Positions 1 to 16,854 of a stretch of 59,428 bases of DNA are shown piece after piece. Each line of letters starts with the position of its first letter. The stretch's first letter is position 1. The notes below the pieces were generated by a model that had not been told where the DNA came from, made no database searches, and saw only the letters and a program-made list of their open reading frames with translations. The stretch covers positions 1 to 59,428 of the IMG/VR virus record IMGVR_UViG_2866649352_000001; one strand, written 5' to 3'. A program made the position numbers and the translations under genes. This DNA comes from a virus.

Positions 1-127
1 GCAATCCACCCACACAAGACGCTCCACGCCTATACCCTCCTTGACCTGCCAAAACACCCGAGCGGAGAGTGTGACATGTCCAGATTTGACCAGCGACGAC
101 GGACTCGATTGTGACAGGACTGTGACA
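1..127. repeat. Terminal direct repeat identical to 59302..59428 (127-bp window-end overlap)
   Basis: Bases 1-127 (gcaatccaccc...ggactgtgaca) recur verbatim as the last 127 bases, so the unique unit is 59,301 bp and circular or circularly permuted. Confidence 0.95.
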
Positions 128-186
128 CCAACTGTGTCACGGACTCTGCCCTGCTCAGAGCTTACTTCTTTCCTCCGAACGAGGGT

Positions 187-212
187 GAACCCCCGGATGT
201 CTCCGGGGGTTC
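187..212 (-). terminator. Stem-loop 3' of the BldC-like gene
   Basis: gaacccccgga-tgtc-tccgggggttc forms an 11-bp stem directly after the minus-strand stop at 218. Confidence 0.6.
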
Positions 213-217
213 ATGCG

Positions 218-418
218 CTACTCCGACGTCTCTGGCTCTCCGTGGAGGAAGGCGAGCACCTCGGACTCGCGGTACCGGCGGTGGCCACCGGCCGTCCGGA
301 TGGAGTTGATCTTTCCCGCCTTCGCCCACCGCGCCACCGTCTTGGGGTCAACGCGGAACAACGCTGCCACCTCGGCTGGAGTCAGCAGGGGCTCGATCGT
401 TGGCGTGTATTTCGGCAT
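218..418 (-). CDS. BldC-like small MerR/excisionase-family DNA-binding protein (66 aa)
   Basis: MPKYTPTIEPLLTPAEVAALFRVDPKTVARWAKAGKINSIRTAGGHRRYRESEVLAFL closely matches my recollection of Streptomyces BldC (EPLLTPAEVA..FRVDPKTV.RWAKAGKL.SIRT.GGHRRYRE.EV). Start chosen at the ATG preceded by AGGAGA; the longer ORF 218..508 has no RBS. Confidence 0.8.
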   Translation of the reverse strand: MPKYTPTIEPLLTPAEVAALFRVDPKTVARWAKAGKINSIRTAGGHRRYRESEVLAFLHGEPETSE

Positions 419-600
419 GGGTCTCCTGTCGTACATGCGAAGGGACCCCGCCGTCCCGGCGGGGTCCCAGCCGCTAATGATCTCGCTGCGATCCGATCGA
501 TAAACCACCTACCTCTCCTGCGAAGGGTTGGAGCCTCCGGACGTGCCAGCACTGGGGTTTGCCCCAGTCCAAGGGGCGTGCACAGCACGCCCGGAGGAGT

Positions 601-975
601 TCATGCCGCCCACCACTCCACGAAGACGATCTTTCCCTTAGGAGCGGTGTACTTGGTTCCCCAGCAGTTGACGATCTTGTCCACAGTCAGGAGACCCCGG
701 CCGGATTCGTCGAACATGCCGATTTGCTGAGGGTCGCGCTTCTCGGGCGGGATAGGGGAGGCGTCCCAGACCTCTATGCCGTAGACGCCGTCCTCGAAGT
801 AGGCGTCTACCCAGAACGAAGTGGTCTCGCCGTGCCGAATCGCGTTGGTCGCCAGCTCGGAGGCGACTAGCTTTACCAGGTGTACGTCGAGTGGCCAGCC
901 CTGGCTCTCGGCGATCTTCGCCACGTGATCACGAGCGGCTTTGACGTTGACTAGATCCGCGTCGAGTTCGATCAC
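601..975 (-). CDS. Anti-sigma-factor-like ATP-binding protein (HATPase_c_2 type), WhiJ-locus-associated class
   Basis: The motifs LVASELATNAIRHG ... FDESGRGL ... fit a GHKL/SpoIIAB-like kinase fold. GTG start at 975 is preceded by GGAGGGAGG. The upstream part of ORF 601..1167 looks non-coding. Confidence 0.7.
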   Translation of the reverse strand: MIELDADLVNVKAARDHVAKIAESQGWPLDVHLVKLVASELATNAIRHGETTSFWVDAYFEDGVYGIEVWDASPIPPEKRDPQQIGMFDESGRGLLTVDKIVNCWGTKYTAPKGKIVFVEWWAA

Positions 976-1109
976 TTCGGCCTCCCTCCTGCTGTCCGTG
1001 AGTCTGGCAGCGCCTTGACACACGTGCGATGCTGTCCGACAGCGTTGACAGCACTTCTTTGAGGAGGGCCCGGAGAACTGTGGCACGTGACCTAGACCCA
1101 AGCTCCAAC
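976..1109. promoter_or_regulatory. Divergent intergenic control region between the ATPase and XRE genes
   Basis: Two TTGACA hexamers (1015-1020, 1045-1050); a 13-bp palindrome GCTGTCCGACAGC (1031-1043); a half-site GCTGTCCG repeated at 991-998. Confidence 0.4.
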
Positions 1110-1877
1110 ATGTGGGACTGGATCGCGATCCAGCTCCGACATGAGCGAGAGAAGCAGAACTGGTCAACGGCGCAGGTCGGACGCCTGCTGAACACTGACC
1201 GGTCGAACATCACGCACATCGAGGCGGGGAGGCGGCACCTCGCCGCAGATCAGGCCGCCAAGCTCGACACCGCGTGGGACACGGGGGGCCGCTTCGCCCA
1301 GATGGTGGACTACGCCCAATCGACGTATCACCCTGACTGGAACCGGGAAAGGCGGACGTACGAGCAGAACGCGACCGCAATCAAGACGTTCCACGCAACC
1401 CTCATCCCTGGGTTGCTCCAAAGCGAGGAGTACGCGCGTGCAGTCTTTGTGGCAGGTGGACGAGCGGATGTCGATGCAGCGGTGGCGGCGCGTCTGGCGC
1501 GACAGGAGGTCCTGAAGCGCCCTGGCGTGAGGCTCTGGGTGCTGCTGGATGAGGCGGTGCTGCTTCGGCCGGTTGGTGGTCCGGCCGTCTGGGCACGCCA
1601 GCTCTCCCATCTACTGAATGCCTCGGAGCAGCCCGATACCGTCCTGCGCATCATCCCATTGGCCTACGGTGAGTACCCTGGTATGGACGGCCCCATAACC
1701 ATTTTCACCATGGACGGCAAGGACGTGGCCTGGACGGACGCTCGGTCCGGGGGTCGGCTGGTGACGGACCCGGCAGCGCTGGACCGATACCGGGTTGAGT
1801 TCGACATGATCGGAGCCGACGCCTTGAGCCGGACTGAGTCGCGACGGCTGCTGACTGAGAAACTGGAGGCATTGTAG
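1110..1877 (+). CDS. XRE-family HTH regulator with DUF5753-like C-terminal domain (WhiJ-like)
   Basis: N-terminal HTH (WSTAQVGRLLNTDRSNITHIEAGRR). The C-terminal ...FHATLIPGLLQSEEYARAV...ARLARQEVL... is typical of Streptomyces WhiJ/Scr1-type XRE proteins. Start taken at ATG 1110. Confidence 0.75.
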   Translation: MWDWIAIQLRHEREKQNWSTAQVGRLLNTDRSNITHIEAGRRHLAADQAAKLDTAWDTGGRFAQMVDYAQSTYHPDWNRERRTYEQNATAIKTFHATLIPGLLQSEEYARAVFVAGGRADVDAAVAARLARQEVLKRPGVRLWVLLDEAVLLRPVGGPAVWARQLSHLLNASEQPDTVLRIIPLAYGEYPGMDGPITIFTMDGKDVAWTDARSGGRLVTDPAALDRYRVEFDMIGADALSRTESRRLLTEKLEAL

Positions 1878-2059
1878 TGATCCACTGGAGGAAGTCTTCG
1901 CGCAGCGATTCGCGTGGAGAGTGTGTCGAGCTGGCCGAGCTGGACAGCTCTGTAGGCATCCGAGACAGCAAGAACCCGGACACCCCCCACCTCACTGTCG
2001 GCCGCGAGGCCCTGTCGGGCCTCCTCAGCCGGATCAAGGCCGGCGAGTTGGACCTGTAG
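1877..2059 (+). CDS. DUF397 domain protein
   Basis: WRKSSRSDSRGECVELA....VGIRDSKNPD.P.L is the DUF397 signature. GTG start overlaps the XRE stop (TAGTG), indicating translational coupling. Confidence 0.8.
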   Translation: MIHWRKSSRSDSRGECVELAELDSSVGIRDSKNPDTPHLTVGREALSGLLSRIKAGELDL

Positions 2060-2067
2060 AACCGCTT

Positions 2068-2088
2068 GACCGGCCTCCAGGGCCGGTC
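2068..2088 (+). terminator. Stem-loop after the DUF397 gene
   Basis: gaccggcc-tccag-ggccggtc lies 9 nt after the stop. Confidence 0.5.
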
Positions 2089-2222
2089 CTAGGCTTCTCT
2101 GTGTGAGGCCGTCACCGTTGCGGCCTAGCAGTTTGGACTTTGGTTCACCTAGCTCGACCCAATCCACGGCCTCACCCCAAGAACCTCCCCTCCGGGGGAG
2201 GTTTTTTGGCTATTCTGGGCTC

Positions 2223-2504
2223 ATGAAGGGCAGAATCCTCCTTTTCGGGGCAGTTTTGGCCGTTGCGACGGCCTGTGGGGCGTCTCAGGACGACCAGATC
2301 GTCATGAAGGACCCATCCAACGGGAAAGAGCGGACCTTCAAGGAGGTCCGAGACATGTTCGCGGACGGTTCGGTCACGACCGGAGGCGAGTCCTGTGCCA
2401 CTTTCGTGTCGTTCGGGGCCAAGGACCAGGGGATCGAGTTCCCGGCCGGACAAGCTGAGTTCGTGAAAGCCTGCGAAGAAGGCTTGAAGGCCAAGTCGAA
2501 TTAG
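2223..2504 (+). CDS. Secreted lipoprotein (93 aa)
   Basis: MKGRILLFGAVLAVATAC is a signal peptide plus lipobox (A-T-A-C). Start taken at ATG 2223 inside ORF 2103..2504. Confidence 0.6.
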   Translation: MKGRILLFGAVLAVATACGASQDDQIVMKDPSNGKERTFKEVRDMFADGSVTTGGESCATFVSFGAKDQGIEFPAGQAEFVKACEEGLKAKSN

Positions 2505-3539
2505 GAATGGCTGAAATGGCCTCTGAACGAGTCTCGGCCCGGACTCGTTCCCTCTCCACCCGGATTAGCCCTGAGGCTCTTAGGAGCCGAATGAGCGCCA
2601 TTTAGAGGCATATGGGACTCCGCGGGGAGTCCCGGTTTTACCATTTCGTGATCTTGGAAGTTTTCCGAGGTGGGATAAGGAATTTTGGTGACGAAACGAC
2701 TACGTTTCGCACTTTCTATTTTCGTACATTTCCGGAGAGGGGAGACGAGTCTCTCCCGCACCCCCGGACGAATGAAGGTACCCCCCCAGGGGTAGGCTGA
2801 CCTGCGGCAACACACTCCCACGCGTGATCACCCTCACTGTATGTGACAGTCATCACTCAATCACATTCAGTGCACGCCGTGCACTGTGATCTGCGCTAAC
2901 ACCATGTGAGTGTGTCACTCACATCATCAACAGTGTGTAGCCACATTGAGTGCATACCTCACGCGCATATGCGCACATGTGCGCACGCGCGGATGAATAA
3001 ACCACGCGCGTACGCGATTAACACACACCTCGCCATTGTGCCAACACCCTCTAAACGGCTCTCAGAGGGCCCGTGAGCGCTTGAACCCCCATTCCCTAGT
3101 CCCACTATGGCCCTGGCCCTATTCGCTGCCTGCCTGGTTAGGGGCACTATTCCTACACTCGGTAATCGACCCCTCACGGGGGCCGATGCTCCCTGGCTCG
3201 GTATCTCGGTTCGGTAACGAAACGCTGCCAGCACCCAAACCCTGCCAAGTGAGCGTCAAGTGAGCTTCCCTCGCGCGTACGCGCGCGAGAGGGAGGCTCG
3301 CGCGTGCGTTGGTTCTTTCATCCGGGCGGGCCGGGACACGCTCCCCGCTCCACGGAGCGTAGTTTCAGAACTCTTTTCAGTGAGTTTCTGAGCCCTGACC
3401 TGGAGAAACGCAAGTCCTCTAAAATATCTTGCTCTTACCTATTGTGACCTGCGGAAACGACCTAAAGCCGCAGGTCAGAAGAACGCACAACCTGTTAAAA
3501 CAGGGTGTTAGCACGTCGTGTGTTTGCTAGCTTTTCGGT

Positions 3540-3925
3540 TGTCAGCAACACGGACCGCCACCACGGGGCCCGGGAAGCAGACGGAGGAACGAAACCCGGC
3601 AACGACGACCGGGAGGGCAGGGACCAAACCGAGGTTCGCGAAGATGCCCATAGTCAGCCGTAGACACTTACGGGCAGGCTCGAACGGAACGTTGGGAAAC
3701 GTGCCGGGCGCGAAAGTGGCGCTTGAAGCCTCGTGAGAAAAATCGCGGGTGAACTAGATGGCTTCGCGGACTATGGCCGGTAGGTCGCCAGCCCAAAGGT
3801 AGCGGGTGAACACGCGCTTACCGTGGGAAACCACCGCCGAAAGGCGGTAGGTCCGGCGGTAACTAGGCAGTCGTACCCGGCGTAAAGCCTTCAACTCAGA
3901 CGCTCGGAAAGTCCTCTGACCAAAG
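3540..3925 (+). ncRNA. Candidate structured RNA or long structured leader (unclassified)
   Basis: Plus-strand GNRA-capped helices: cggaacgtt-GGGA-aacgtgccg (3685-3706), gtgg-GAAA-ccac (3823-3834), cgcc-GAAA-ggcg (3835-3846), a GAAA-containing loop at 3708-3722. Further helices at 3595-3613 and 3658-3673. Internal repeats GCGGGTGAAC x2 and GGTAGGTC x2. No convincing ORF. Confidence 0.25.
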
Positions 3926-3933
3926 GATGGATC

Positions 3934-4266
3934 ATGTACCAACGTCAGATGCAGCGTCCGGACTTCGACGCCAAAAAAGACTTCTCCCAAGCGGAACCTA
4001 CTGACCGTCACCACTACCGGAATAACGGTCTGGGCCGCAGGATGCTCCACCTGTCCAGCGGTAAGGGTACGCGTACGGGAGTGGGCGAGACTAAGCCGTT
4101 CACGGCTGCTCGTAAGTCTCCCCGTAAGCAGAGTTCCGCGCCAAAGGGCTACCCGCCCGCGCGGATGTCGAGTCCGAAGAATGCCGCAGCGCACGAAAAG
4201 CGTATGGCGACGCTTCGCGAACGTCACCCGGACGTTTACGCCCGAATGATGCGTGAAGCCAGCTAG
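3934..4266 (+). CDS. Hypothetical basic protein (110 aa)
   Basis: ATG preceded by AAAGGATGG and followed by a clear terminator. Arg/Lys-rich. Preferred over the antisense ORF 3754..4227. Confidence 0.5.
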   Translation: MYQRQMQRPDFDAKKDFSQAEPTDRHHYRNNGLGRRMLHLSSGKGTRTGVGETKPFTAARKSPRKQSSAPKGYPPARMSSPKNAAAHEKRMATLRERHPDVYARMMREAS

Positions 4267-4279
4267 TACTGTCCGATAA

Positions 4280-4308
4280 AGGCCGACCCTTTTGGGTCGG
4301 CCTTTTTC
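4280..4308 (+). terminator. Intrinsic terminator
   Basis: aggccgaccc-ttttg-ggtcggcct followed by TTTTT. Confidence 0.75.
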
Positions 4309-4322
4309 CTTTGGGAGGGTTA

Positions 4323-4550
4323 ATGGACCTCGCGTTCAGTCCCGGCTACTTCCCGAACGACTTCGGGGGGACGGACATCCTGACCGGCAACGGGGAGTTC
4401 TGTGGCCGGACTGGTCGAACCAAGTTCGACACGTGGGCCGCCGCCATCCCCGATGGGGCGGGTTCGATCGCCATTCTGGGGGCCAACTTCGAGACGGACA
4501 ACGATGCACAGGTGTGCATCTTCCGTGCCCTCGCGAAAAGGGGCTACTGA
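4323..4550 (+). CDS. Hypothetical protein (75 aa)
   Basis: ATG after GGGAGGG; stop overlaps the next start (TGATG). Confidence 0.55.
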   Translation: MDLAFSPGYFPNDFGGTDILTGNGEFCGRTGRTKFDTWAAAIPDGAGSIAILGANFETDNDAQVCIFRALAKRGY

Positions 4551-4705
4551 TGAACCTCGGCAAGCTGAACCGCGACAAGCTGATCGAGGCCGCCGCTAGG
4601 CGCGGCATCCCAGTGGAGGAACTGGAGAAGGCTCTACGGGAGAACAAGACGCTTGTCGCACGTCACGGCGCGACGCATTCGGCCACTTTTTTTGGCCAGT
4701 TTTAG
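4550..4705 (+). CDS. Hypothetical protein (51 aa)
   Basis: MNLGKLNRDKLIEAAARRGIPVEELEKAL...; coupled start. Confidence 0.5.
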   Translation: MNLGKLNRDKLIEAAARRGIPVEELEKALRENKTLVARHGATHSATFFGQF

Positions 4706-4724
4706 CAGGTCGTTAGCAGACCAT
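4692..4724 (+). promoter_or_regulatory. Conserved promoter-like element, copy A (divergent)
   Basis: T-run, TTGGCC, 16-nt spacer, and tandem 11-mers TAGCAGGTCGT TAGCAGACCAT. Same architecture as the copies at 43069, 47564 and 51408. Confidence 0.45.
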
Positions 4725-4854
4725 TAGTGATGAGGTCTCGTGCCTGTCATCTCGACTAGGCCGAAACGTACGCCCATTGCCGTACGTCGCACGCTGACAT
4801 TGCGTGCCCGATGAGTGCCTGTCATCGGTCCGGAAAACCTTCAGGAGGATTTCC

Positions 4855-5049
4855 ATGGTGATCGTGGACCAGAAGTTCAACATGCCGGTCGGCTCCCTGG
4901 TGGAGGACGTCGATTACCCGCAGGACGGGGTATTCCGTATCACCGAGCGGCCTCACACCACGGCATACGGCACCGAAGTGGGTGTCGTGAACGCTGCCGG
5001 AAGGCGGTTCACGGACTACGCGATCTTCTTCAAGCCGCTCGCCCGGTAA
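4855..5049 (+). CDS. Hypothetical protein (64 aa)
   Basis: ATG preceded by CAGGAGGA. Confidence 0.55.
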   Translation: MVIVDQKFNMPVGSLVEDVDYPQDGVFRITERPHTTAYGTEVGVVNAAGRRFTDYAIFFKPLAR

Positions 5050-5077
5050 TGACGAGCCGTTGGCTTGTGTCCACTGA

Positions 5078-5410
5078 ATGACTCGTCTGGTCATGGATGA
5101 CGTGCGGGATTACCCAAACGAGCCATGGCCGTTTAAGCCATTCAACGTGACAGGAGGGCAAGTGAAGTACGGGTACGAGGTCATTTACGTCGAGCCTGGC
5201 GAGGGCGTGGAAGTCGGGTCAACAGGTCGAGTCTTCGACACCATGAAGGAAGCCGCGGAAGAACTGAGCGTGATCTACGGCGACAACGAGATCCTTCAGG
5301 TGACCTTTACCGTCCACCCCAACCGGGTCATTACCCGGAGGGAAGTCGTCCGCGAAATCGCGGAGATGCGCGGACTGTCCGTCACGGAGTACTACCAGCG
5401 CACTTCCTGA
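5078..5410 (+). CDS. Hypothetical protein (110 aa)
   Basis: ORF track; coding-like composition. Confidence 0.55.
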   Translation: MTRLVMDDVRDYPNEPWPFKPFNVTGGQVKYGYEVIYVEPGEGVEVGSTGRVFDTMKEAAEELSVIYGDNEILQVTFTVHPNRVITRREVVREIAEMRGLSVTEYYQRTS

Positions 5411-5436
5411 CAACACACCAGATGGAGGGATGACAT

Positions 5437-5613
5437 ATGGCCAAGCAGGGCGCCAAGGGTAAGAAGATCGGGCGGAACAAGGTGAAGTGCGAGCGCTACC
5501 GCGCGAAGGGGACGCGGGAGCAGAACAAGGAACGTCGTCGGCTGAAGCGAGAGGGAAAGCTCGCTGTGCGCAAGATGCTGCGTGAGGCCGCCGAGCGGGT
5601 GGACGCCGCGTAG
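5437..5613 (+). CDS. Hypothetical highly basic protein (58 aa; below ORF-track cutoff)
   Basis: Hand-translated: MAKQGAKGKKIGRNKVKCERYRAKGTREQNKERRRLKREGKL...; ATG after GGAGGGA. Confidence 0.45.
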   Translation: MAKQGAKGKKIGRNKVKCERYRAKGTREQNKERRRLKREGKLAVRKMLREAAERVDAA

Positions 5614-5618
5614 CGATC

Positions 5619-5747
5619 ATGTGCCACGTCTACATCGATGAAAACTGGACCGTCCAACGGGACGAGTGTGACTACCCGGAGGACGACTACTGCCCAACTC
5701 CCGAGGAGTTGGACGAGATGGAGTGGGAGGCCACGGAAGGGCTCTGA
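5619..5747 (+). CDS. Hypothetical acidic protein (42 aa; below cutoff)
   Basis: Hand-translated: MCHVYIDENWTVQRDECDYPEDDYCPTPEELDEMEWEATEGL; followed by a terminator. Confidence 0.35.
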   Translation: MCHVYIDENWTVQRDECDYPEDDYCPTPEELDEMEWEATEGL

Positions 5748-5766
5748 CGAGTCGTCGGATCTCATC

Positions 5767-5797
5767 GAGGCACCTGGTGATACCCAGGTGCCTCTTT
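5767..5797 (+). terminator. Intrinsic terminator
   Basis: gaggcacctgg-tgatac-ccaggtgcctc followed by TTT. Confidence 0.7.
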
Positions 5798-5832
5798 GCA
5801 TTCTTACGAATCGTTTCTACTGAGGAGATGAG

Positions 5833-5994
5833 ATGAGCGACTACCGATGGAACGGCGCCTACATGCCGGGCGCCAGGAAGGTCAACGGCAACAAGGGCAT
5901 CATGCGTGCCCTGAAGAAGCTAAAGCGTCAGCAGGCCGAGACGCGGAACGCGCAGACGCCGGCCGAACGTCGGCGCAAGAACCGGGTGGCCTGA
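5833..5994 (+). CDS. Hypothetical basic protein (53 aa; below cutoff)
   Basis: Hand-translated: MSDYRWNGAYMPGARKVNGNKGIMRALKKLKRQQAETRNAQTPAERRRKNRVA; GAGGAG upstream. Confidence 0.4.
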   Translation: MSDYRWNGAYMPGARKVNGNKGIMRALKKLKRQQAETRNAQTPAERRRKNRVA

Positions 5995-5995
5995 G

Positions 5996-6784
5996 ATGGT
6001 CGTTTCTCTGGTGAAGGACTACGTCCACACCTTCCCGTACCCGTATGACGACCTCTGGTTCAAGATGTCGCCTGCGTTCCGCTTCCTGGTGGACAGCGGC
6101 GTGATCGACCTGGAGAAGGGCGCCGAGATCCCTTACCGGTGCGAAGGCGTAGACGAGATCGCCTTCGAGCTGGACGGGCCGTGGTCGGGTTCGGACTACT
6201 CCGGGGATGACATCACCGAGTCGAACCAGCGATCCCTGGCCCGTGACTACAAGGACATCGTGATCGACTCCACGAGGTACTGGGGCCACAGCCCCTACGG
6301 CCTCCAGGTGGACGTCTACTTCGGATGGGGTGAGAACGCCGATCACGCCATGGACCTGGCCGAGAACCTTGTCAGCCTGAAGCACGACTACCCGTTGTAC
6401 GACGAAGAGGACAACTCCAAGCTGCTCGACGAGCGCGCGGAGCGGGCGTGGGACGGATACATGGAGTCGGACATCGCGTCCGACATCGAGAAGCGTCTCG
6501 GGATCGATCTGGATCTCAGGACGGACAAGGCCGGTGAAATCTTCTGGGAGACGTGCAGCGATCACGAGATTTACCCAGAGGCCGAGGGACACCGAGACGT
6601 CCTCATGCGGGGGACCGGTGATGAGGAATTCCAGATCGATCTGGCGCGGCGTGTGCTGGAAGCACAGGGGCCCGAGTTCCCCGACTACCTCTACGACCTG
6701 ACGGACCTCGGTTACGAGGTCCTGGCCGACTACATGGTGAAGCAGTTCGAGGGCCAGTGCCCTGGCCAGATGAGCATTCTCTGA
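5996..6784 (+). CDS. Hypothetical acidic protein (262 aa)
   Basis: Long ORF, Asp/Glu-rich; no family recognised. Confidence 0.6.
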   Translation: MVVSLVKDYVHTFPYPYDDLWFKMSPAFRFLVDSGVIDLEKGAEIPYRCEGVDEIAFELDGPWSGSDYSGDDITESNQRSLARDYKDIVIDSTRYWGHSPYGLQVDVYFGWGENADHAMDLAENLVSLKHDYPLYDEEDNSKLLDERAERAWDGYMESDIASDIEKRLGIDLDLRTDKAGEIFWETCSDHEIYPEAEGHRDVLMRGTGDEEFQIDLARRVLEAQGPEFPDYLYDLTDLGYEVLADYMVKQFEGQCPGQMSIL

Positions 6785-6795
6785 GGGTGTGACAG

Positions 6796-7032
6796 GTGTT
6801 CAACTACGACCCCGCTAAGGACTGGGACAACAGGAACAACCCCAAACCGCACTACCGGCTGTACCTGGACCGTGATGGCAAGCCCTGCATCATCTGTGTC
6901 CAGGACTTCGACTACATGGATTACGAGGACAGCCGGTTTCTCAGCGACGAGGGTTACGACACCGAGGCTGAAGCCGAGGTCGGTCTTCTGCTGCTGAGGG
7001 CCAAAGCAGCCCAGATCCTGGGCCTTCTCTAG
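6796..7032 (+). CDS. Hypothetical protein (78 aa)
   Basis: ORF track; GTG start. Confidence 0.5.
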   Translation: MFNYDPAKDWDNRNNPKPHYRLYLDRDGKPCIICVQDFDYMDYEDSRFLSDEGYDTEAEAEVGLLLLRAKAAQILGLL

Positions 7033-7064
7033 TTCTTTCATCCGACAACGCAAGAGGAGAGCAC

Positions 7065-7337
7065 ATGTTTGAGACGGAGATCAAGCGCGGCGCGGCATAC
7101 CTGGACAGAGTCGATCCGGAATGGGTCAAGAAGATCGACTTGGACCTCCTGAGCATCAACGATCCCAAGGACTGTGTCGTCGGCCAGGTGTTCGGCGACT
7201 TCTGGGAGTGGATGGGCTACTACACCAGTTGGGAGACCGTGCACGAGCACGGTTTCGCCGCTGAGAACGGCGATCACCCCCAACTGACTAAGGAGTGGAA
7301 GGAGTTCATCCGGGAGCGTCAGTCTGAGCAGGCCTGA
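7065..7337 (+). CDS. Hypothetical protein, paralog family A member 1
   Basis: Shares GAA.LD...P.W...IDL..L.....C...Q...GF...LT..W...I..R with 7366..7647 and 8331..8633. Confidence 0.6.
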   Translation: MFETEIKRGAAYLDRVDPEWVKKIDLDLLSINDPKDCVVGQVFGDFWEWMGYYTSWETVHEHGFAAENGDHPQLTKEWKEFIRERQSEQA

Positions 7338-7365
7338 CGCGAGCTAATCGAAAAGGAGAGGACAC

Positions 7366-7647
7366 ATGCTGGACATCGAAGTGAGAGTGAAGGACGGAGC
7401 CGCTTTCCTGGACGAGAAGCGTCCGGGTTGGGCCGATGAGATCGACCTGGAGACGCTCGACGTCGCGGACGGGGACTACTGCGTCCTGGCGCAGCTCTAC
7501 GACGACTACAACACGGGCTACTACGTGCTTGGGCTGGACGACGTCTGGGATAGGCGGGACCTCGGGTTCTCGGCGATCGGGTACGACGAGTATCCCGCGC
7601 TGACGGACGCCTGGCACGCGCTGATCACAGAGCGTCGAGCCGCCTGA
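7366..7647 (+). CDS. Hypothetical protein, paralog family A member 2
   Basis: See 7065..7337. Confidence 0.6.
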   Translation: MLDIEVRVKDGAAFLDEKRPGWADEIDLETLDVADGDYCVLAQLYDDYNTGYYVLGLDDVWDRRDLGFSAIGYDEYPALTDAWHALITERRAA

Positions 7648-7727
7648 GAACGTCGGTAGGGCATCGGGTGCACATCGGTGGATGTGCGCCCTTTTGTTTT
7701 CCCGAAGTTCCGATTGAGAGGAGAGCC

Positions 7728-7907
7728 ATGAACACGGCTGTTGAGGAAGAGGAGCCGGAACCCCTGCACGCTTACCAGGTGACCCCGGAAGACGCCTCCT
7801 TCTTCCGAAAAATGAAAGGCAAGTGGTCATACGGAAACGAGATCGAGGCCGTAACCCTTCCGAGCGGCCGGGTGATCAGCGGGGCCGAGATGAAGAGGTG
7901 GGTGTGA
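7728..7907 (+). CDS. Hypothetical protein (59 aa)
   Basis: ATG after GAGAGGAGAG. Confidence 0.5.
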   Translation: MNTAVEEEEPEPLHAYQVTPEDASFFRKMKGKWSYGNEIEAVTLPSGRVISGAEMKRWV

Positions 7908-8080
7908 TGTTCAAGCTGGAATTCAGGACGGACACGGCAATCTTCAAATCCTCCCCTGTCTTTGAATATTGGAGGATTTTCAACCTGGTAAGGGACCAGG
8001 TTGACGCAGGAGCCCGCGAGGGCACTATCCAGGACACCAACGGCAACACCATCGGCCACTTCGAGATTACGGAGGACTGA
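7907..8080 (+). CDS. Hypothetical protein (57 aa)
   Basis: Coupled start (GTGATG). Confidence 0.45.
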   Translation: MFKLEFRTDTAIFKSSPVFEYWRIFNLVRDQVDAGAREGTIQDTNGNTIGHFEITED

Positions 8081-8319
8081 TGCGGCACTGGACAACGTCT
8101 GACGGTTCGCACGTGTGGGCATGGGAAGACGTTCGAGGCGCGGACTACCGCGCCATCTGGATTCCTGCTAAGGACTCCATAGAGCTGCTCCGTTCCGTCT
8201 CCGCCGGAGCGGGTTGGCCCACGGTCGCGACCGTTTCGGAAGTGTACGACCGTTTCCATGCGAAGCACATCACCGACTCCTGGTACGCGCTCATCTTCCA
8301 CATCGACACAGTGAAATGA
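8080..8319 (+). CDS. Hypothetical protein (79 aa)
   Basis: Coupled start (TGATG). Confidence 0.5.
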   Translation: MRHWTTSDGSHVWAWEDVRGADYRAIWIPAKDSIELLRSVSAGAGWPTVATVSEVYDRFHAKHITDSWYALIFHIDTVK

Positions 8320-8330
8320 GGAGAACTGAC

Positions 8331-8633
8331 ATGGATCTCACCTACGAGGAGCGCGCCAAGGCTGGCGCGGATCTGCTCGACGCGGAGTACCCCAACTGGT
8401 TCGAGGAGATCGACCTCGGAATCCTGAGGCTGGAATCGCCGTGGAACTGCATTTTGTCTCAGGTGTACGACAGCTACAGCCTCGGCATGGACGAGCTGGG
8501 GATCTCAGAGGCGGATGGACAGGCCGCCAATCTCGGGTTCTTCGAGCCGGGGAATGACCCAGAAATCTACATGCTGGGTTACGAGAAGCTCACCGAGGCG
8601 TGGACTGCCGAAATCAACAAGCGGAGGAACTGA
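8331..8633 (+). CDS. Hypothetical protein, paralog family A member 3
   Basis: MDLTYEERAKAGADLLDAEYPNWFEEIDLGILRL...NCILSQVY...LGFF...LTEAWTAEINKRR. Confidence 0.6.
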   Translation: MDLTYEERAKAGADLLDAEYPNWFEEIDLGILRLESPWNCILSQVYDSYSLGMDELGISEADGQAANLGFFEPGNDPEIYMLGYEKLTEAWTAEINKRRN

Positions 8634-8634
8634 C

Positions 8635-8973
8635 ATGACCAAGCCAACCTTTGCGGCCCTGGAGAGCAAGGTGCGCGAACTGGCGAGCGCGAACCCAGAC
8701 TTCGTTTACGACCGTGGCGACTACATCTCGTGCCGCTACAACCCCGATGACTTGCAGCCCGGCTGCTTGTTCGGTCAGGCGTTCATCGCCTTGGGGCACC
8801 CGATTCCGATGCACCTGGACACCAGGCCTATCGACACAGTTCTCAGGATCCTGGCGATCGAGATGACTCCTGAAGAGGAGAGCTGGGCGTGGTACGCCCA
8901 GAAGGGACAGGACCGAGGCAAGCCCTGGGGTGAAGCAGTCAAGAATGCGGATCGCCTGCACCCTCTGAGCTGA
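8635..8973 (+). CDS. Hypothetical protein, paralog family B member 1
   Basis: ...RELASANPDFVYDRGDYISCRYNP...GCLFGQAFIALGHPIP parallels 10624..10968. Confidence 0.6.
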   Translation: MTKPTFAALESKVRELASANPDFVYDRGDYISCRYNPDDLQPGCLFGQAFIALGHPIPMHLDTRPIDTVLRILAIEMTPEEESWAWYAQKGQDRGKPWGEAVKNADRLHPLS

Positions 8974-8989
8974 TTCCCCGATGGACTCT

Positions 8990-9018
8990 GGCACCCGTCC
9001 TCCTTGAGGACGGGTGCC
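8990..9018 (+). terminator. Stem-loop terminator
   Basis: ggcacccgtcc-tccttga-ggacgggtgcc. Confidence 0.6.
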
Positions 9019-9065
9019 GTTGCCTGTCTAGGAGTCAGGTTCATCAAAAGGAGAGGAAGTCAGCA

Positions 9066-9497
9066 ATGGCGAACATCGGGCGACTCGACAAGATCATCGA
9101 CTTGATCACGGCCGAGGAGATCAAGCACGATCAGGGCACATGGACATCCGGCCTCAATGGTGAGGTGAAGCACGGGGAGGAGGGTCAGATTGACGACGAG
9201 CTGAAGTGCGGAACCGCGTGCTGCATCGCGGGTTGGGCCGCCGTCATGTACGCGCCGAAGGGCACGAAGTTCACCGACTACGACGATGTGACCCTGCCGG
9301 ACGGCATCCGCGTGTCGTACCCCTCGTACGGCCGCCAGGTTCTGGACCTGACCTGGGATGAGGCGGATGTCCTCTTCAACGGGGACAACGACCTGGACGA
9401 AATCCAGGAAATGCGAAACGCCCTGGAGGACGGCAGTTTCCATTCGAGGTACCTCGGCTACGAGGACGGAAACGAAGAATGTGAGTGCTGCCGCTGA
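9066..9497 (+). CDS. Hypothetical Cys-rich protein (143 aa)
   Basis: ORF track; KCGTACCIAGWA motif; C-terminal ECECC. Confidence 0.6.
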   Translation: MANIGRLDKIIDLITAEEIKHDQGTWTSGLNGEVKHGEEGQIDDELKCGTACCIAGWAAVMYAPKGTKFTDYDDVTLPDGIRVSYPSYGRQVLDLTWDEADVLFNGDNDLDEIQEMRNALEDGSFHSRYLGYEDGNEECECCR

Positions 9498-9519
9498 TTG
9501 ATGGGCCTCGGATGACTCT

Positions 9520-9546
9520 GGAGCACAGGCCACATGCCTGTGCTCC
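9520..9546 (+). terminator. Stem-loop terminator
   Basis: ggagcacaggc-cacat-gcctgtgctcc. Confidence 0.6.
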
Positions 9547-9599
9547 GGGGCTTTCTTAGGACCGTTCAAGCCTGACACGTCAAACAAAAGGGAGATGAC

Positions 9600-9953
9600 A
9601 TGTCCGCTGCCAAGCCGATGACCATCAGTCGCCGCACTCGGGTCTATCTTGCTCAGAACAACGGTGGTCCGCTCACGCCTCCGCAGCGCAGGCGTTACGA
9701 CAAGAAGAACCGAAAGTGGATGGGCCAGCACACGGCCGAGCTGGAGGCCGTAGCAAGGGGGATAGCCGACAACCACACCAAGAGGCCGGACCTGCCGGTC
9801 GGCCTGGTGCCCTTCGAGGAGATCGCGGAGGAGGTCATCGCTCCGGTGGAGGACTTCCCGGTTGTGGTGCGCCCGTGTGGTGGCACGGACCACTGCGTCA
9901 CCAAGAGCGGCAAGAAGGCCAAGACGACGCACAAGGGATGCGAGGGGTTCTGA
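9600..9953 (+). CDS. Hypothetical protein (117 aa)
   Basis: ATG after AAAGGGAGA. Confidence 0.55.
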   Translation: MSAAKPMTISRRTRVYLAQNNGGPLTPPQRRRYDKKNRKWMGQHTAELEAVARGIADNHTKRPDLPVGLVPFEEIAEEVIAPVEDFPVVVRPCGGTDHCVTKSGKKAKTTHKGCEGF

Positions 9954-10108
9954 TGAAGGAGCTGCTGATCGAGGTCTATTGGGACGGGCATTCCCGGACA
10001 TGGTCTGTCCACGTCCGTCGAACGCTCGATCACGACTGGGAGGAACTCGTCGGCTCGGAGGACGACCTAAGCGACCTCCTGACTGAGGCTCACGACATCG
10101 TGAATTGA
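9953..10108 (+). CDS. Hypothetical protein (51 aa)
   Basis: Coupled start TGATG. Confidence 0.4.
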   Translation: MKELLIEVYWDGHSRTWSVHVRRTLDHDWEELVGSEDDLSDLLTEAHDIVN

Positions 10109-10119
10109 GGGAGGTTCTG

Positions 10120-10389
10120 ATGGAGCTGCATCCGCTTGGAAGGTGGACCACCCTCCCCTGGGGGTGGTCTCGATTCGTCTACAAGGGCGAGCCCTACAGC
10201 GTGCTTCGCAAAAGATACGGCGTCTGGCTCGTTTACCGGGAAGGACGAGACGATGACGATTGGGCGGTGAGGGTCTGGGCCACATTCCCCATGACTGCCT
10301 CACTACGCCATGAGCCGGACCAGCAGTGGTCCACACCCAACGACATCGACGTCACCATGTTCACAGCACTCCAGAGGATAGGGGACTGA
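10120..10389 (+). CDS. Hypothetical protein (89 aa)
   Basis: ATG after GGGAGG. Confidence 0.5.
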   Translation: MELHPLGRWTTLPWGWSRFVYKGEPYSVLRKRYGVWLVYREGRDDDDWAVRVWATFPMTASLRHEPDQQWSTPNDIDVTMFTALQRIGD

Positions 10390-10391
10390 CG

Positions 10392-10562
10392 GTGATCGAT
10401 GACCCCGAGGTGTGGGTGACTCTCGCGACCGCCATGCAGCGTCAGATCCGGGAGCTGAACCGGCTCATTCGAGCCGCTGAGAAAGACGGATACGACTCTG
10501 CCGGCCTGAAAGAGGATCTCGCCCGCGCCAAGCGTGCGCGCGACTACGTCACCGCTGCCTAA
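10392..10562 (+). CDS. Hypothetical protein (56 aa)
   Basis: GTG start; followed by a terminator. Confidence 0.4.
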   Translation: MIDDPEVWVTLATAMQRQIRELNRLIRAAEKDGYDSAGLKEDLARAKRARDYVTAA

Positions 10563-10575
10563 GTAGACGTTCACG

Positions 10576-10601
10576 AGGCCCGCTAGATGGCGGGCCTTTT
10601 T
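10576..10601 (+). terminator. Intrinsic terminator
   Basis: aggcccgc-tagatg-gcgggcct followed by TTTTT. Confidence 0.7.
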
Positions 10602-10623
10602 CATGCCCAGATAGGGAGAGCAG

Positions 10624-10968
10624 ATGACTGAGACGCTGACATTCAAGCAGATCGAGAACGAGGTTCGCCGACTGGCGGCGGAGAATCCCGATTTCGTATA
10701 CGAGTCCTATCACGGATCGTGCTTCTACAACCCCACGGAACGGGCGGGGAAGCAGTACGGGGCGTGCATTTTCGGGCAGGCGTTCACCAATCTCGGGACC
10801 CCCGTGCCCGATGGAATCGACGAGGACTACATCGGGTCCGTTCTTCCGAACATGGGCATTGAGACCACGCTCGACCAGTACGAATGGGCGGGAACGGTGC
10901 AATACCAGCAAGACCAGGGCTGCGCGTGGGCGCTGGCCGTTGCCCTGGCCGACGACGAACGCCGCTGA
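10624..10968 (+). CDS. Hypothetical protein, paralog family B member 2
   Basis: ...RRLAAENPDFVYESYHGSCFYNP...ACIFGQAFTNLGTPVP. Confidence 0.6.
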   Translation: MTETLTFKQIENEVRRLAAENPDFVYESYHGSCFYNPTERAGKQYGACIFGQAFTNLGTPVPDGIDEDYIGSVLPNMGIETTLDQYEWAGTVQYQQDQGCAWALAVALADDERR

Positions 10969-10987
10969 TCTGATCCGATTTGGGAGG

Positions 10988-11012
10988 GGCCACCTCTTCA
11001 AGGTGGCCTTTT
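10988..11012 (+). terminator. Intrinsic terminator
   Basis: ggccacct-cttca-aggtggcc followed by TTTT. Confidence 0.7.
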
Positions 11013-11014
11013 CC

Positions 11015-11368
11015 ATGTCCGATCAAATCACAACCCTACTGTCGAGACAGGAGAGAGAGTTGAGTGAGGACGAGAACGTTGAACTGTTCCAGAGCAAGCG
11101 CCTCATATGGACAGGCATCTTCGCAACCTTCGTGCAGGACCTGATCAACCAGGGTGCTCCCAGCTCGGAGCTGGACAAGCGTGCTCTGGACGCATTGGAC
11201 GGTCTGATCGCGGTCGTGGACAAGAAGCTGCCTGAGGGCTGCTGGTGGGCCGTGGGTTCTTCCGCCATCTGGGGCCCTCCCGGCTCCGTCCTGCCGGACA
11301 TCGACTCTCTCATGGAGGAGCTGATCGCGGATGCCCGCGCAAATTTGGAAGCCCAAGGAGAGGAATGA
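11015..11368 (+). CDS. Hypothetical protein (117 aa)
   Basis: Internal ATG of ORF 10811..11368, directly after the terminator. Confidence 0.5.
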   Translation: MSDQITTLLSRQERELSEDENVELFQSKRLIWTGIFATFVQDLINQGAPSSELDKRALDALDGLIAVVDKKLPEGCWWAVGSSAIWGPPGSVLPDIDSLMEELIADARANLEAQGEE

Positions 11369-11523
11369 GTAGTTACGAGACATACGCCAATGAGGAAGGC
11401 GAAAGCGTCACTCACAGGGTGACACGAGACGGCTTGGTCCTCGAAGCGGATCTCGATGATCCGGAGGACGTTCGCAACATTCCCTACTTCTGGGAACACC
11501 AGTCCCCGGCTGATTACAACTAA
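11365..11523 (+). CDS. Hypothetical protein (52 aa)
   Basis: ATGA-coupled start. Confidence 0.4.
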   Translation: MSSYETYANEEGESVTHRVTRDGLVLEADLDDPEDVRNIPYFWEHQSPADYN

Positions 11524-11571
11524 CAGGAAGGCAGCTCCGCAGGGCTGCCAAGACGATGCCCTCCCGAGGGC

Positions 11572-11844
11572 ATGGAAAGGCACACAATGCTGTTCGAGAA
11601 CGACGTTTACCCGCTCACCGACAACCCGTACAACGGCTTCGCTACGGAGGCTGAGGCCGTATCGAAGGTGGCAGCCAAGTTCGCCCTCGTGATGCGGCTG
11701 CTCACTGGCGACTTCACGTGTGAGGGTTTGATCCACGCTTTCGGTGAGATGGCCATCACCGACCCGGAGCTGGCGATGACCGCTCTGGACAAGGTCGAGG
11801 AGGCTCACCAGGCCGACCCCAGCCGGGGCCTGCTTCAGCGCTGA
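11572..11844 (+). CDS. Hypothetical protein (about 85-90 aa)
   Basis: ORF track; start could instead be ATG 11587. Confidence 0.5.
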   Translation: MERHTMLFENDVYPLTDNPYNGFATEAEAVSKVAAKFALVMRLLTGDFTCEGLIHAFGEMAITDPELAMTALDKVEEAHQADPSRGLLQR

Positions 11845-11931
11845 TGTTCGCCGGATGGGATTGGTTCTTCGCGACCCTGGCCGTCCTCTGGACGGTCGGG
11901 GTCGTGGGGTCCTGGCGTGAATGGAGACAGC

Positions 11932-12117
11932 ATGTTTCGCGGACTAAGCGTCGATGAGCTGTATGAGCTGGCAGGAAGACTTCGCCGTGCGGCTATACGG
12001 GTTCCGGACAGCGATACGAGTGCGGAACTCGCTGAGATTTACGTTGAAGTCCTTGATCACGTCTGGCTGGAGGAGTTCTTCGACGCCCAGGAGCGAGAGT
12101 CCGGATATGTTTTCTGA
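11932..12117 (+). CDS. Hypothetical protein (61 aa)
   Basis: ATG after GGAGA. A 37-aa hydrophobic ORF (11844..11957) overlaps upstream and is unresolved. Confidence 0.45.
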   Translation: MFRGLSVDELYELAGRLRRAAIRVPDSDTSAELAEIYVEVLDHVWLEEFFDAQERESGYVF

Positions 12118-12298
12118 GCTAACCGACGAGGAGCTGTGTGCGCTCGAAGAAATCCTTTACCGAGGCAAGAACCGGGCCCTACCTGTGAACCTCGATGCTC
12201 CGTACGCCATGGATATCTGGGATGACGTTTTCGGGGCCTGGGACGACGCCACTGACGAGATGCGAAGAAGGAACTGGACCCACATAAAACGAGTGTGA
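12107..12298 (+). CDS. Hypothetical acidic protein (63 aa)
   Basis: Tail of ORF 11954..12298, from the ATG at 12107. Confidence 0.45.
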   Translation: MFSELTDEELCALEEILYRGKNRALPVNLDAPYAMDIWDDVFGAWDDATDEMRRRNWTHIKRV

Positions 12299-16840: not shown

Positions 16841-16854
16841 CCCCATTCTGTGAC

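What the first reader, a model, noticed from the sequence alone, without database searches (positions are those of the whole stretch)
3540..3925. Candidate large structured RNA with several GNRA-capped helices upstream of a basic 110-aa ORF
On the plus strand there are at least four helices capped by GNRA tetraloops: 3685-3706 (9-bp stem, GGGA), 3823-3834 (GAAA), 3835-3846 (GAAA) and 3708-3722 (GAAA-containing). Further helices lie at 3595-3613 and 3658-3673. There are internal direct repeats GCGGGTGAAC (3745, 3802) and GGTAGGTC (3779, 3846), suggesting a duplicated module. GNRA loops read as such only on the plus strand, which argues for a plus-sense RNA. A half copy of the TAGCAC promoter-like motif lies at 3509-3519. 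I could not match it to a known family. A GGAAAGTCC string at 3906-3914 is too isolated to call RNase P. It may be a novel ncRNA or a long regulatory leader for 3934..4266.
Basis: seen in the sequence. Interest (0 to 1): 0.6.

Follow-up and report, generated by a model that had tools for sequence, protein, structure and literature searches.

The report
Conserved structured leader RNA of phage early operon
The stretch is a real, non-coding, folded RNA region that sits between a temperate actinomycete phage's early promoter and its first early gene. Its folded modules are conserved in four related prophages, and it looks like an uncatalogued cousin of the abundant "right-end" non-coding RNAs of mycobacteriophages, whose function is still unknown.

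Summary
Window 3537-3933 has no coding signal in any frame. It lies between a promoter-like site (3508-3533) and a conserved small basic gene (3934-4266). It carries three clean GNRA hairpins on the plus strand against 0.3 expected and none on the minus strand.

Rfam 15 matches nothing: not RNase P, tmRNA, an intron, GOLLD or ROOL.

The decisive evidence is comparative. Four related prophages of the same genus hold homologous modules. These include Actinomadura oligospora ATCC 43269 and Spirillospora sp. CA-294931.
- Core (3640-3778): 5 sequences, 32 pairs, 8 with compensatory changes against 3.1 in shuffles.
- Second module (3800-3882): shared with one prophage, 29 of 29 pairs kept, 8 changed on both sides.
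- GNRA loops are kept while their stems change.

In the relatives the region is longer. It has 4-5 tandem promoters, an rrn-type boxA/boxC word and a tRNA-like 3' end. The window holds a condensed version without boxA or the tRNA-like element.

A probable cos site lies about 750 nt upstream. The layout therefore matches the abundant Pleft non-coding RNA of mycobacteriophage L5/D29.

Function is inferred. The most likely role is a co-transcriptional antitermination platform for a 14-kb operon studded with terminators. A stable trans-acting early RNA is the main rival.

The parts
2769..2800 (.). Probable cos (genome-end) site. This is context, not part of the RNA.
   Evidence: The element is conserved in all five related loci. 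Its best alignment to the joined ends of Streptomyces phage Success falls exactly across the physical end junction.
3442..3480 (+). Hairpin made of two inverted copies of a 10-12 nt word that recurs upstream of the first promoter in the relatives.
   Evidence: Function unknown.
3508..3533 (+). Early promoter-like site. It has a half copy of the phage's tandem promoter/operator word (3508-3514) and a -10-like TAGCTT (3528-3533). The inferred transcript start is near 3537-3540.
   Evidence: One search shows full tandem copies at 43090, 47575 and 51429, directly before genes. In the relatives the equivalent words are followed by a TAnnnT hexamer at 17-18 nt (read). In the window the spacing to 3508 is only 14 nt, so the -35 assignment is uncertain.
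3537..3933 (+). Non-coding structured leader RNA, the object of the finding.
   Evidence: No coding frame. No Rfam match. GNRA hairpin excess on the plus strand only. Purine-rich plus strand.
3586..3650 (+). 5' block with the hairpin 3596-3614. It is homologous to the 5' end of the longest RNA unit in two relatives.
   Evidence: 88% identity over 32 nt to L022 9423-9454. Alignment A3.
3640..3778 (+). Conserved core module: a long irregular hairpin of six nested helices.
   Evidence: Alignment A1 of 5 loci. RNAalifold gives 32 pairs, 8 compensatory. 85% of cells are paired against 78.2% in shuffles. Double changes are 8 against 3.1 (0 of 500 shuffles), and slid controls give 28-41% paired. Model R1 scores 100-131 bits at exactly these 5 loci. 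Folding z is -3.30.
3685..3706 (+). GNRA-capped hairpin inside the core.
   Evidence: The loop is GGGA here and GUGA in three relatives. The loop-closing pair changes U-A to C-G.
3707..3723 (+). Extra hairpin, an insertion relative to three of the relatives (G509, G494, G476).
   Evidence: Alignment A1.
3800..3882 (+). Second conserved module: a long hairpin ending in the GNRA-capped stem 3833-3848.
   Evidence: Homologous to L021 13744-13827. All 29 pairs are kept, 8 changed on both sides, and the loop is GAAA here against GUGA there. Model R2 gives 104-105 bits in these two loci only. Folding z is -3.33.
3886..3905 (+). Possible degenerate remnant of a boxA/boxC word. Unconfirmed.
   Evidence: Seen by eye only. 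A matrix and an HMM built from the relatives' and host rrn boxA do not detect it.
3934..4266 (+). First early gene: a 110-aa basic protein of unknown function, with a ribosome-binding site at 3923-3927.
   Evidence: Homologs share 45-50% identity in prophage G489 and a metagenome contig. Three distant ~95-aa relatives turn up among 1.84 billion representatives. No Pfam or PHROG match.
4278..4305 (+). Strong intrinsic terminator directly after the first gene.
   Evidence: 12-bp stem with 8 G-C pairs and a T-run. The next gene starts at 4323, with no room for a promoter in between.

Best explanation
Window 3537-3933 is the untranslated, plus-strand leader RNA of the phage's early-left transcription unit.

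Layout:
- Transcription starts at a promoter-like site at 3508-3533, about 750 nt inside the probable cos site.
- The RNA is built from at least two independently folding hairpin modules that selection has conserved. They are the core at 3640-3778 and the second module at 3800-3882. Each presents a GNRA tetraloop.

Proposed mechanism (inferred, not shown):
- As the modules emerge from RNA polymerase they fold and act as a loading platform.
- The partners could be host elongation factors, the small basic product of the first gene, or both.
- This converts the polymerase into a termination-resistant form.
- That form can pass the terminator at 4278-4305 and at least five further terminator-like hairpins, and so transcribe the 14-kb early operon.

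The folded RNA is probably also stable and accumulates, as in mycobacteriophage L5.

My estimates: about 0.85 that it is a conserved structured RNA, and about 0.4 that antitermination is its main role.
For: Shown:
- No frame in the stretch scores as coding.
- No known RNA family matches.
- Two modules have compensatory changes in homologous prophages.
- Covariance models R1 and R2 find only these loci.
- GNRA loops are kept while their stems change.
- Each module's single-sequence fold equals the comparative structure, with z about -3.3.

Support for the mechanism (circumstantial):
- In G509, G494, G476 and the IMG/VR contig L044 the same region carries a word 78-95% identical to the host's own rrn leader boxA/boxC. 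In the three prophages with a core it lies just upstream of it. The distant Streptomyces phages Success and Ibantik carry it too.
- In Mycobacterium tuberculosis the rrn boxC is a specific NusA-binding site (cited in PMC2724277).
- The early operon 3934-18051 has 6 strong plus-strand terminator-like hairpins after 4278, plus the operon-end one. No promoter-like site or promoter word follows 3533.
- The second module co-occurs with the family-1 basic first gene in both loci where this can be tested.
- The order of modules differs between phages. From general knowledge, the order of boxA and boxB likewise differs between lambda nut and rrn.
Against: - The window itself has no detectable boxA or boxC, and neither does G489.
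- In the relatives a further promoter-like word lies between the RNA and the first gene. Transcripts from it would lack the RNA.
- Also in the relatives the RNA ends in a tRNA-like element plus a hairpin. That suggests a discrete processed RNA rather than a cis signal.
- There are no transcript data for this phage.
- Only five independent sequences exist, three of them close. The structures were derived from the same alignments that were then scored.
- G.U pairs do not discriminate the strand: 85% paired on the plus strand against 83% read as minus. Strand assignment rests on the GNRA loops and the context.
- The promoter's -35 spacing is poor.
- The first-gene protein has no clear N-terminal arginine-rich motif.
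Confidence: 0.4

Rival explanations
1. It is a stable, abundant, trans-acting early non-coding RNA of the L5/D29 Pleft type. The RNA is the product, made in large amounts early in infection, and it acts on a host target. The downstream genes get only the minority of transcripts that read through.
For: - The position matches: cos, then early promoter, then about 400-500 nt with no ORF, then the first gene.
- Dedrick et al. 2017 (PMC5712189) describe the L5 RNA. It is the most abundant phage transcript and is stable. It is processed to 100-400 nt species and is toxic to the host. About 90% of transcripts end before the genes.
- A similar region exists in Rhodococcus phage WC1 (PMC10986025).
- In the relatives the unit has its own promoters and a tRNA-like 3' end that could be cut by tRNA-processing enzymes.
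- Sense-strand GNRA hairpin excess recurs in L5, Success and Ibantik.
Against: - In the window there is no 3' boundary before the ORF.
- Model R1 finds nothing in the L5 right end, so no homology is shown.
- No target is known even for L5.
- This reading does not explain the boxA/boxC words in the relatives.
- It is compatible with the best explanation rather than exclusive of it.
Confidence: 0.3
2. It is a cis-acting 5' UTR that controls only the first gene 3934-4266, through mRNA stability or translation. It would work like a long regulatory leader or riboswitch.
For: It lies directly upstream of the ORF with no terminator or promoter between them. Structured 5' ends stabilise mRNAs.
Against: - In G489 and the metagenome contig L045 the same gene family has a promoter-like word and a tRNA-like element between RNA and gene.
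- In three relatives the core precedes a different first-gene family.
- The ribosome-binding site sits in an open loop in the predicted fold.
- No riboswitch family matches.
Confidence: 0.1
3. It is a DNA-level element such as a replication origin, packaging signal or protein-binding array. The conservation would then reflect DNA hairpins or binding sites, not RNA.
For: - The region lies near the probable cos site.
- Short direct repeats are spaced 34 and 44 nt apart.
- Pairing percentages are nearly the same on both strands.
Against: - Compensatory changes keep long imperfect hairpins with conserved GNRA loops. Those loops read as such only on the plus strand.
- Composition is purine-rich on the sense strand, as in the transcribed analogous leaders.
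- The better-conserved candidate cos element lies 750 nt away.
- In L5 the analogous region is demonstrably transcribed (PMC5712189).
Confidence: 0.05
4. It is a single large catalytic or architectural RNA with a fixed tertiary fold, in the manner of RNase P, a group I intron, GOLLD or ROOL.
For: Several GNRA loops could make tertiary contacts. The size is near 400 nt. A 9-mer resembles RNase P P4. The phage carries 20 tRNAs.
Against: - No Rfam model matches, even at E up to 10 on a 1-kb search, nor in the relatives.
- ARAGORN finds no tmRNA.
- Module order and content differ between phages. The second module is 5' of the core in G489 and 3' of it here, and is absent in three relatives. That is hard to reconcile with one fixed fold.
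Confidence: 0.05

Closest known systems
Pleft right-end non-coding RNA of Cluster A mycobacteriophages L5, D29 and StarStuff (Dedrick et al. 2017, BMC Microbiol 17:225, PMC5712189); nc_3 of Rhodococcus phage WC1 (PMC10986025)
   Same: - About 400-500 nt with no ORF, between the early lytic promoter and the first early gene.
- Next to the genome end (cos).
- Same transcription direction as the early operon.
- Excess of GNRA hairpins on the sense strand.
- Function unknown.
   Different: - No sequence or structure homology was detected: model R1 against the L5 right end gives 6 bits or less.
- Expression, stability and toxicity are unknown here.
- The L5 RNA has no published covariation-supported structure, to my knowledge.
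- The relatives of this RNA carry rrn-type boxA/boxC and a tRNA-like 3' end. Neither was reported in the passages of the L5 paper that I read.
rrn leader antitermination signals (boxB-boxA-boxC) and the lambda nut/N system
   Same: - A leader RNA just after the promoter(s) of a long operon that contains terminators.
- GNRA-type hairpins.
- Relatives carry a word 78-95% identical to the host rrn boxA/boxC.
- A small basic first gene followed at once by a terminator, as with lambda pL-N-tL1 (general knowledge).
   Different: - The window has no detectable boxA or boxC.
- The conserved core and the second module have no counterpart in the host rrn leaders compared.
- The first-gene product shows no homology to N and no obvious arginine-rich N-terminus.
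put RNA of phage HK022 and other RNA-only processive antiterminators such as EAR (general knowledge)
   Same: Folded stem-loop modules in the nascent leader could act directly on the polymerase without boxA.
   Different: put is about 70 nt with two stem-loops, and no homology was tested. This RNA is larger and modular. No functional data exist.
Large phage-associated structured RNAs GOLLD and ROOL (Rfam)
   Same: Several-hundred-nt structured RNAs of unknown function in prophages. They are often next to tRNAs, and the relatives here end in a tRNA-like element.
   Different: No Rfam match. The module order is variable rather than one conserved architecture.
Bacterial RNase P RNA
   Same: One 9-nt word at 3906-3914 resembles the P4 strand. 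The phage has a large tRNA array.
   Different: No covariance-model match at any threshold used. The word is not conserved in the relatives.

Membership tests
Bacterial RNase P RNA (Rfam RF00010/RF00011) | Match to the covariance model (P1-P4 core, conserved regions CR-I to CR-V) | tested here: not met
   No hit at gathering score on the whole window or at E up to 10 on 3300-4300. None in the relatives either.
tmRNA | tRNA-like domain joined by 5' and 3' ends, plus a tag reading frame | tested here: not met
   ARAGORN finds none in 1-10000, and Rfam finds none. The relatives' tRNA-like elements have both acceptor strands locally.
GOLLD / ROOL / other catalogued large ncRNAs, riboswitches, group I/II introns | Match to any Rfam 15 model | tested here: not met
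   Only chance-level hits, far below the gathering scores.
rrn / lambda-type Nus-dependent antitermination site | boxA word (NusB-NusE site) in the nascent leader | tested here: not met
   A position matrix and an HMM were built from host rrn leaders and the relatives. Neither finds a site in 2500-4300. The word is present in G509, G494, G476, L044, Success and Ibantik.
rrn / lambda-type Nus-dependent antitermination site | Stem-loop with a GNRA-type loop (boxB-like) near the signal | tested here: inconclusive
   Conserved GNRA hairpins exist at 3685-3706 and 3833-3848. No binding partner has been shown.
rrn / lambda-type Nus-dependent antitermination site | Terminators downstream that must be read through | tested here: met
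   Terminator-like hairpins lie at 4278, 5767, 7666, 9516, 16855 and 17666 on the plus strand. No promoter-like site follows 3533. These are consensus scans only.
lambda N-type antiterminator protein (for ORF 3934-4266) | Small basic protein with an arginine-rich RNA-binding motif, encoded first in the operon | tested here: inconclusive
   The protein is 110 aa, basic, first in the operon and followed by a terminator. It has conserved basic patches mid-protein and near the C-terminus. It has no N homology and no family match.
Actinophage early-promoter right-end ncRNA (L5 Pleft type) | ORF-free stretch of several hundred nt between the early promoter and the first gene, beside cos | tested here: met
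   The same layout occurs in Success and Ponzi. Both cos and the promoter are inferred.
Actinophage early-promoter right-end ncRNA (L5 Pleft type) | Very abundant, stable, processed transcript; toxic when expressed | not testable with these tools
   No expression data exist for this phage.
Actinophage early-promoter right-end ncRNA (L5 Pleft type) | Sequence or structure homology to the L5 RNA | tested here: not met
   Model R1 with filters off on L5 50300-52297 gives at best 6.2 bits. R2 on default filters finds nothing there.

The most novel reading that the evidence does not exclude
Actinomycete phages of this group may carry a previously undescribed RNA-based control system for early transcription. 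A modular leader RNA would imitate the host rRNA-operon leader, with tandem promoters, GNRA hairpins, boxA/boxC and a tRNA-like end. In boxA-less members such as this one, it would instead use a phage-specific pair: the conserved GNRA-capped module at 3800-3882 and the small basic first-gene protein. That pair would be a functional analogue of lambda nut/N that arose independently in Actinobacteria.
Probability: 0.2. Interest if true: 0.8.

Novelty: new variant of a known kind. Interest (0 to 1): 0.58.

Why it matters
Abundant non-coding RNAs made from the early promoter at the genome end of mycobacteriophages have been known since 2017. They still have no structure, no family definition and no mechanism.

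This locus supplies three things.
- A small family (five loci) with covariation-supported modules and working covariance models.
- A physical link, in the relatives, between these leaders and host-type rrn antitermination words.
- A concrete hypothesis that can be tested with reporter constructs: termination-resistant early transcription, possibly with a cognate small basic protein.

If confirmed, it would explain how these phages drive long early operons through many terminators. It would also give a handle on the function of the whole class of actinophage 'right-end' RNAs. That class includes phages used therapeutically against mycobacteria.

Tried and rejected
Searches that found no homolog of the RNA:
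- DNA search of the region against 50,697 phage records.
- 60 relatives and 400 family genomes: only chance hits.
- BLAST and nhmmer against the analogous ends of Success, Ponzi and Ibantik: no similarity.
- An exact pattern for the core hairpin: 0 hits in viral contigs, and only two of the already known prophages in 185,579 species genomes.
- R1 on 150 family genomes: none.
- R1 on the IMG/VR contig L044, the metagenome contig L045 and the L5 right end: none.
- R2 is found only in the window and G489.
- L047 from IMG/VR gave scores identical to G489 and is taken as the same prophage, not a new sequence.

Searches with the 110-aa protein:
- Viral contigs and the 5.8-billion-protein word index: nothing.
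- The exhaustive profile search gave only three distant small relatives.

Ideas rejected:
- Coding potential, including the 72-aa and 30-aa ORFs inside the region.
- RNase P, tmRNA and tRNA in the window.
- Whole-region thermodynamic stability as evidence. The contig-wide background is itself at z about -0.8.
- boxA in the window.
- Similarity of the RNA to host rrn leaders beyond the boxA word in the relatives.

Limits:
I redid it from references.
- A visual impression that 3545-3585 resembles the segment after the first promoter in G476 was not confirmed by an alignment program. I do not rely on it.

Full report
**Context.** The window is a whole 59,428-bp contig of a 9-Mb actinomycete assembly. 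It has a 127-nt terminal direct repeat, so it was assembled as a circle.
- It is a temperate siphophage-like genome.
- The integrase is at 58000-59226.
- Regulatory cargo genes lie at 1-2500.
- An ORF-poor stretch runs from 2505 to 3933.
- A plus-strand early operon runs from 3934 to about 18051.
- Lysis and structural genes are on the minus strand.
- 20 tRNAs lie at 37.3-40 kb.
- Replication genes are on the plus strand.
- By large terminase, the nearest sequenced phages are Streptomyces phages Ponzi, Success and Ibantik and Thermobifida phage P318, at 52-58% amino-acid identity.

**The observation.**
- GNRA-capped hairpins with stems of at least 4 bp number three on the plus strand and none on the minus strand. 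Dinucleotide shuffles give 0.28 (P about 0.001). Only 0.3% of equal-sized windows of the contig reach three.
- A codon-usage score trained on 19 confident genes of this phage is negative or near zero for all six frames across 2500-3933. That includes every ORF of 30-72 codons inside the finding.
- The same score is weakly positive (best of the six frames) for 3934-4266.
- Whole-region folding energy is not persuasive alone. It gives z -2.75 on the plus strand and -1.35 on the minus strand, against a contig-wide background of -0.8 ± 1.4.

**Known families.** Rfam 15 gives nothing in or near the region, either at gathering scores or at E up to 10 on a 1-kb search. ARAGORN finds no tRNA or tmRNA. 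The RNase P-like 9-mer is therefore an isolated word.

**Finding homologs.** Direct DNA searches failed.
- A genus-wide search with 19.9 kb of the early region picked up scattered early-gene matches. They led to related prophages in three genomes, and a fourth followed.
- The four are G489, G509 (Spirillospora sp. CA-294931), G494 and G476 (Actinomadura oligospora ATCC 43269).
- An IMG/VR contig (L044) and a 2.6-kb metagenome contig (L045) were added through protein searches.
- The 110-aa ORF has homologs at 45-50% identity in G489 and L045, so it is a real gene.
- Each relative has an ORF-poor region at the same place, 0.9-1.5 kb long.

**Comparative structure.** Two modules of the window are conserved.

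The core (3640-3778):
- It aligns with one segment in each of the four prophages (A1).
- RNAalifold predicts six nested helices with 32 pairs. Eight have a compensatory double change.
- On the pair counter, 85% of cells pair against 78.2 ± 1.5% in shuffles (0 of 500 reach it). Double changes are 8 against 3.1 ± 1.3 (0 of 500). Sliding the partners by 1-3 columns drops pairing to 28-41%.
- The hairpin 3685-3706 keeps a GNRA loop: GGGA here, GUGA in three relatives. Its closing pair switches U-A to C-G.

The second module (3800-3882):
- It aligns with G489 at about 70% identity.
- All 29 predicted pairs are kept. Eight are changed on both sides and two on one side.
- The terminal loop is GAAA here and GUGA there.

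Both modules:
- Single-sequence folds reproduce these structures, with z about -3.3.
- Covariance models R1 and R2 score 100-131 bits on exactly these loci and nothing else. The searches covered 104 genomes of the genus, 150 of the family, and the other phage loci.

Caveats:
- Only five sequences exist, and three are close.
- The structures were derived from the alignments later scored.
- G.U pairs do not separate the strands, at 85% against 83%. Strand assignment rests on the conserved GNRA loops, the purine-rich sense strand and the gene context.

**Architecture in the relatives** (read).
- Their non-coding regions contain four or five copies of a phage-specific tandem 11-mer. In most it includes a -35-like hexamer, followed at 17-18 nt by a TAnnnT -10.
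- Each copy is followed by 110-700 nt of hairpin-rich RNA.
- The longest unit holds the 5' block, then a word that closely matches the host's own rrn leader boxA/boxC, and then the core. The match is 78-95% over 19-41 nt.
- The region ends in a tRNA-like element (Rfam tRNA-Sec model, 35 bits; ARAGORN tRNA-Gly in G509), then a hairpin, a last promoter word and the first gene.
- The same boxA/boxC word occurs at the equivalent place and orientation in Success, Ibantik and L044.
- In Mycobacterium tuberculosis the rrn boxC is a specific NusA site (PMC2724277).

**How the window differs.**
- It has one half promoter word and no internal promoters.
- It has no tRNA-like element.
- By matrix and HMM it has no boxA.
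- Its 5' block and core are adjacent, whereas about 250 nt separate them in the relatives.
- The second module lies 3' of the core here and 5' of it in G489.
- The RNA is therefore modular, not one rigid fold.

**Position relative to the genome end.**
- Success and Ponzi have about 1.2 kb of unannotated DNA at their right physical end, upstream of the leftward early operon.
- A roughly 100-nt element at window 2700-2810 is conserved in all relatives.
- Its best alignment to the joined ends of Success falls exactly across the end junction. cos probably lies near 2770-2800.
- The order cos, early promoter, ORF-free RNA, first gene is that of mycobacteriophage L5.
- In L5 the ~500-nt stretch after Pleft gives the most abundant and very stable phage transcript. 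It is processed to 100-400 nt species and is toxic to the host. About 90% of transcripts end before the genes, and the function is unknown (PMC5712189).
- Rhodococcus phage WC1 has a similar region (PMC10986025).
- Sense-strand GNRA hairpin excess recurs in the leaders of G509, G494, G476, Success, Ibantik and, weakly, L5.
- R1 does not match the L5 leader.

**Mechanism.** What is shown is a conserved, modular, structured non-coding region on the strand of the early operon, directly after a promoter-like site. What follows is inference.
- I favour a co-transcriptional role in making early transcription termination-resistant (about 0.4), for four reasons.
  - The relatives place host-type boxA/boxC in the same unit.
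  - The window has a strong terminator immediately after the first gene, with no room for a promoter before the next gene.
  - The 14-kb operon holds at least five further strong terminator-like hairpins, and no promoter-like site follows 3533.
  - The second module co-occurs with the family-1 small basic first gene. That hints at a nut/N-like pair.
- Four points count against this.
  - The window has no boxA.
  - The relatives have a promoter word after the RNA.
  - The relatives' tRNA-like 3' end suggests a discrete RNA.
  - No expression data exist.
- The main rival (about 0.3) is an L5-type abundant trans-acting RNA. The two are not exclusive.
- A leader that controls only the first gene, a DNA-level element and a single large ribozyme-like RNA are each unlikely, for the reasons given under the rivals.

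**Novelty.** The kind is known but mechanistically unexplained: an actinophage early-promoter non-coding RNA beside the genome end. New here are the sequence and structure family with covariation support and working models. So are the modular organisation and the association, in the relatives, with rrn-type antitermination words and a tRNA-like end. I found none of these in the papers searched.

Noticed in passing
window 2700-2810: A roughly 100-nt element is conserved in all related prophages: a hairpin, then a run of seven C, then a short conserved word. Its alignment to phage Success falls exactly on that phage's physical end junction, so it is probably the cos site.
   Followed up: partly
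window 2797-2808, 3445-3454, 3467-3478 (inverted): A 10-12 nt word is repeated three times, and two copies form the hairpin 3442-3480. It recurs upstream of the first promoter in Success, G489, G509 and L044. It also occurs once upstream of a host rrn operon (L035 164-175). It may be a protein-binding site.
   Followed up: partly
window 43090, 47575, 51429 (plus strand); half copy at 3508: A tandem 11-mer promoter/operator-like word lies directly before replication-region genes, each time after a T-run. Each related prophage has its own version of the word at equivalent places. That pattern fits immunity-specific operators overlapping promoters, reminiscent of L5 stoperators.
   Followed up: partly
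L022 9912-9994; L021 about 14090-14160; L026 about 2300-2385; L023 (minus strand) about 10355-10420; L045 about 140-200: A tRNA-like element (acceptor stem and T-arm, D-arm often missing) ends the non-coding region in five relatives. It is absent from the window.
   Followed up: partly
L022 about 9600-9625; L026 about 1985-2015; L044 about 8005-8030; Success and Ibantik right ends: Words nearly identical to the host rrn leader boxA/boxC lie in the early leaders of relatives and of distant Streptomyces phages. They run in the direction of early transcription.
   Followed up: yes
window 55381, 45280, 50634, 17691 (plus strand): These are the best matches of the boxA matrix elsewhere in the phage, with scores of 9.5-15 against 26-41 for true sites. 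Their meaning is unknown.
   Followed up: no
window 4278-4305, 5767-5794, 7666-7691, 9516-9550, 16855-16872, 17666-17691, 18407-18430: The early operon is studded with strong plus-strand terminator-like hairpins. Over 3300-18600 on both strands there are 21 terminator-like sites, against 11 ± 3.5 expected.
   Followed up: partly
L021 13434-13558: Model R1 gives a weak second match (16 bits) upstream of the main core in G489. It may be a diverged second copy of the core.
   Followed up: no
window 4311-4705: The third-position GC pattern suggests two short genes: about 4323-4550, then a second in another frame ending at 4705. It does not fit the single 137-aa ORF at 4292-4705.
   Followed up: no
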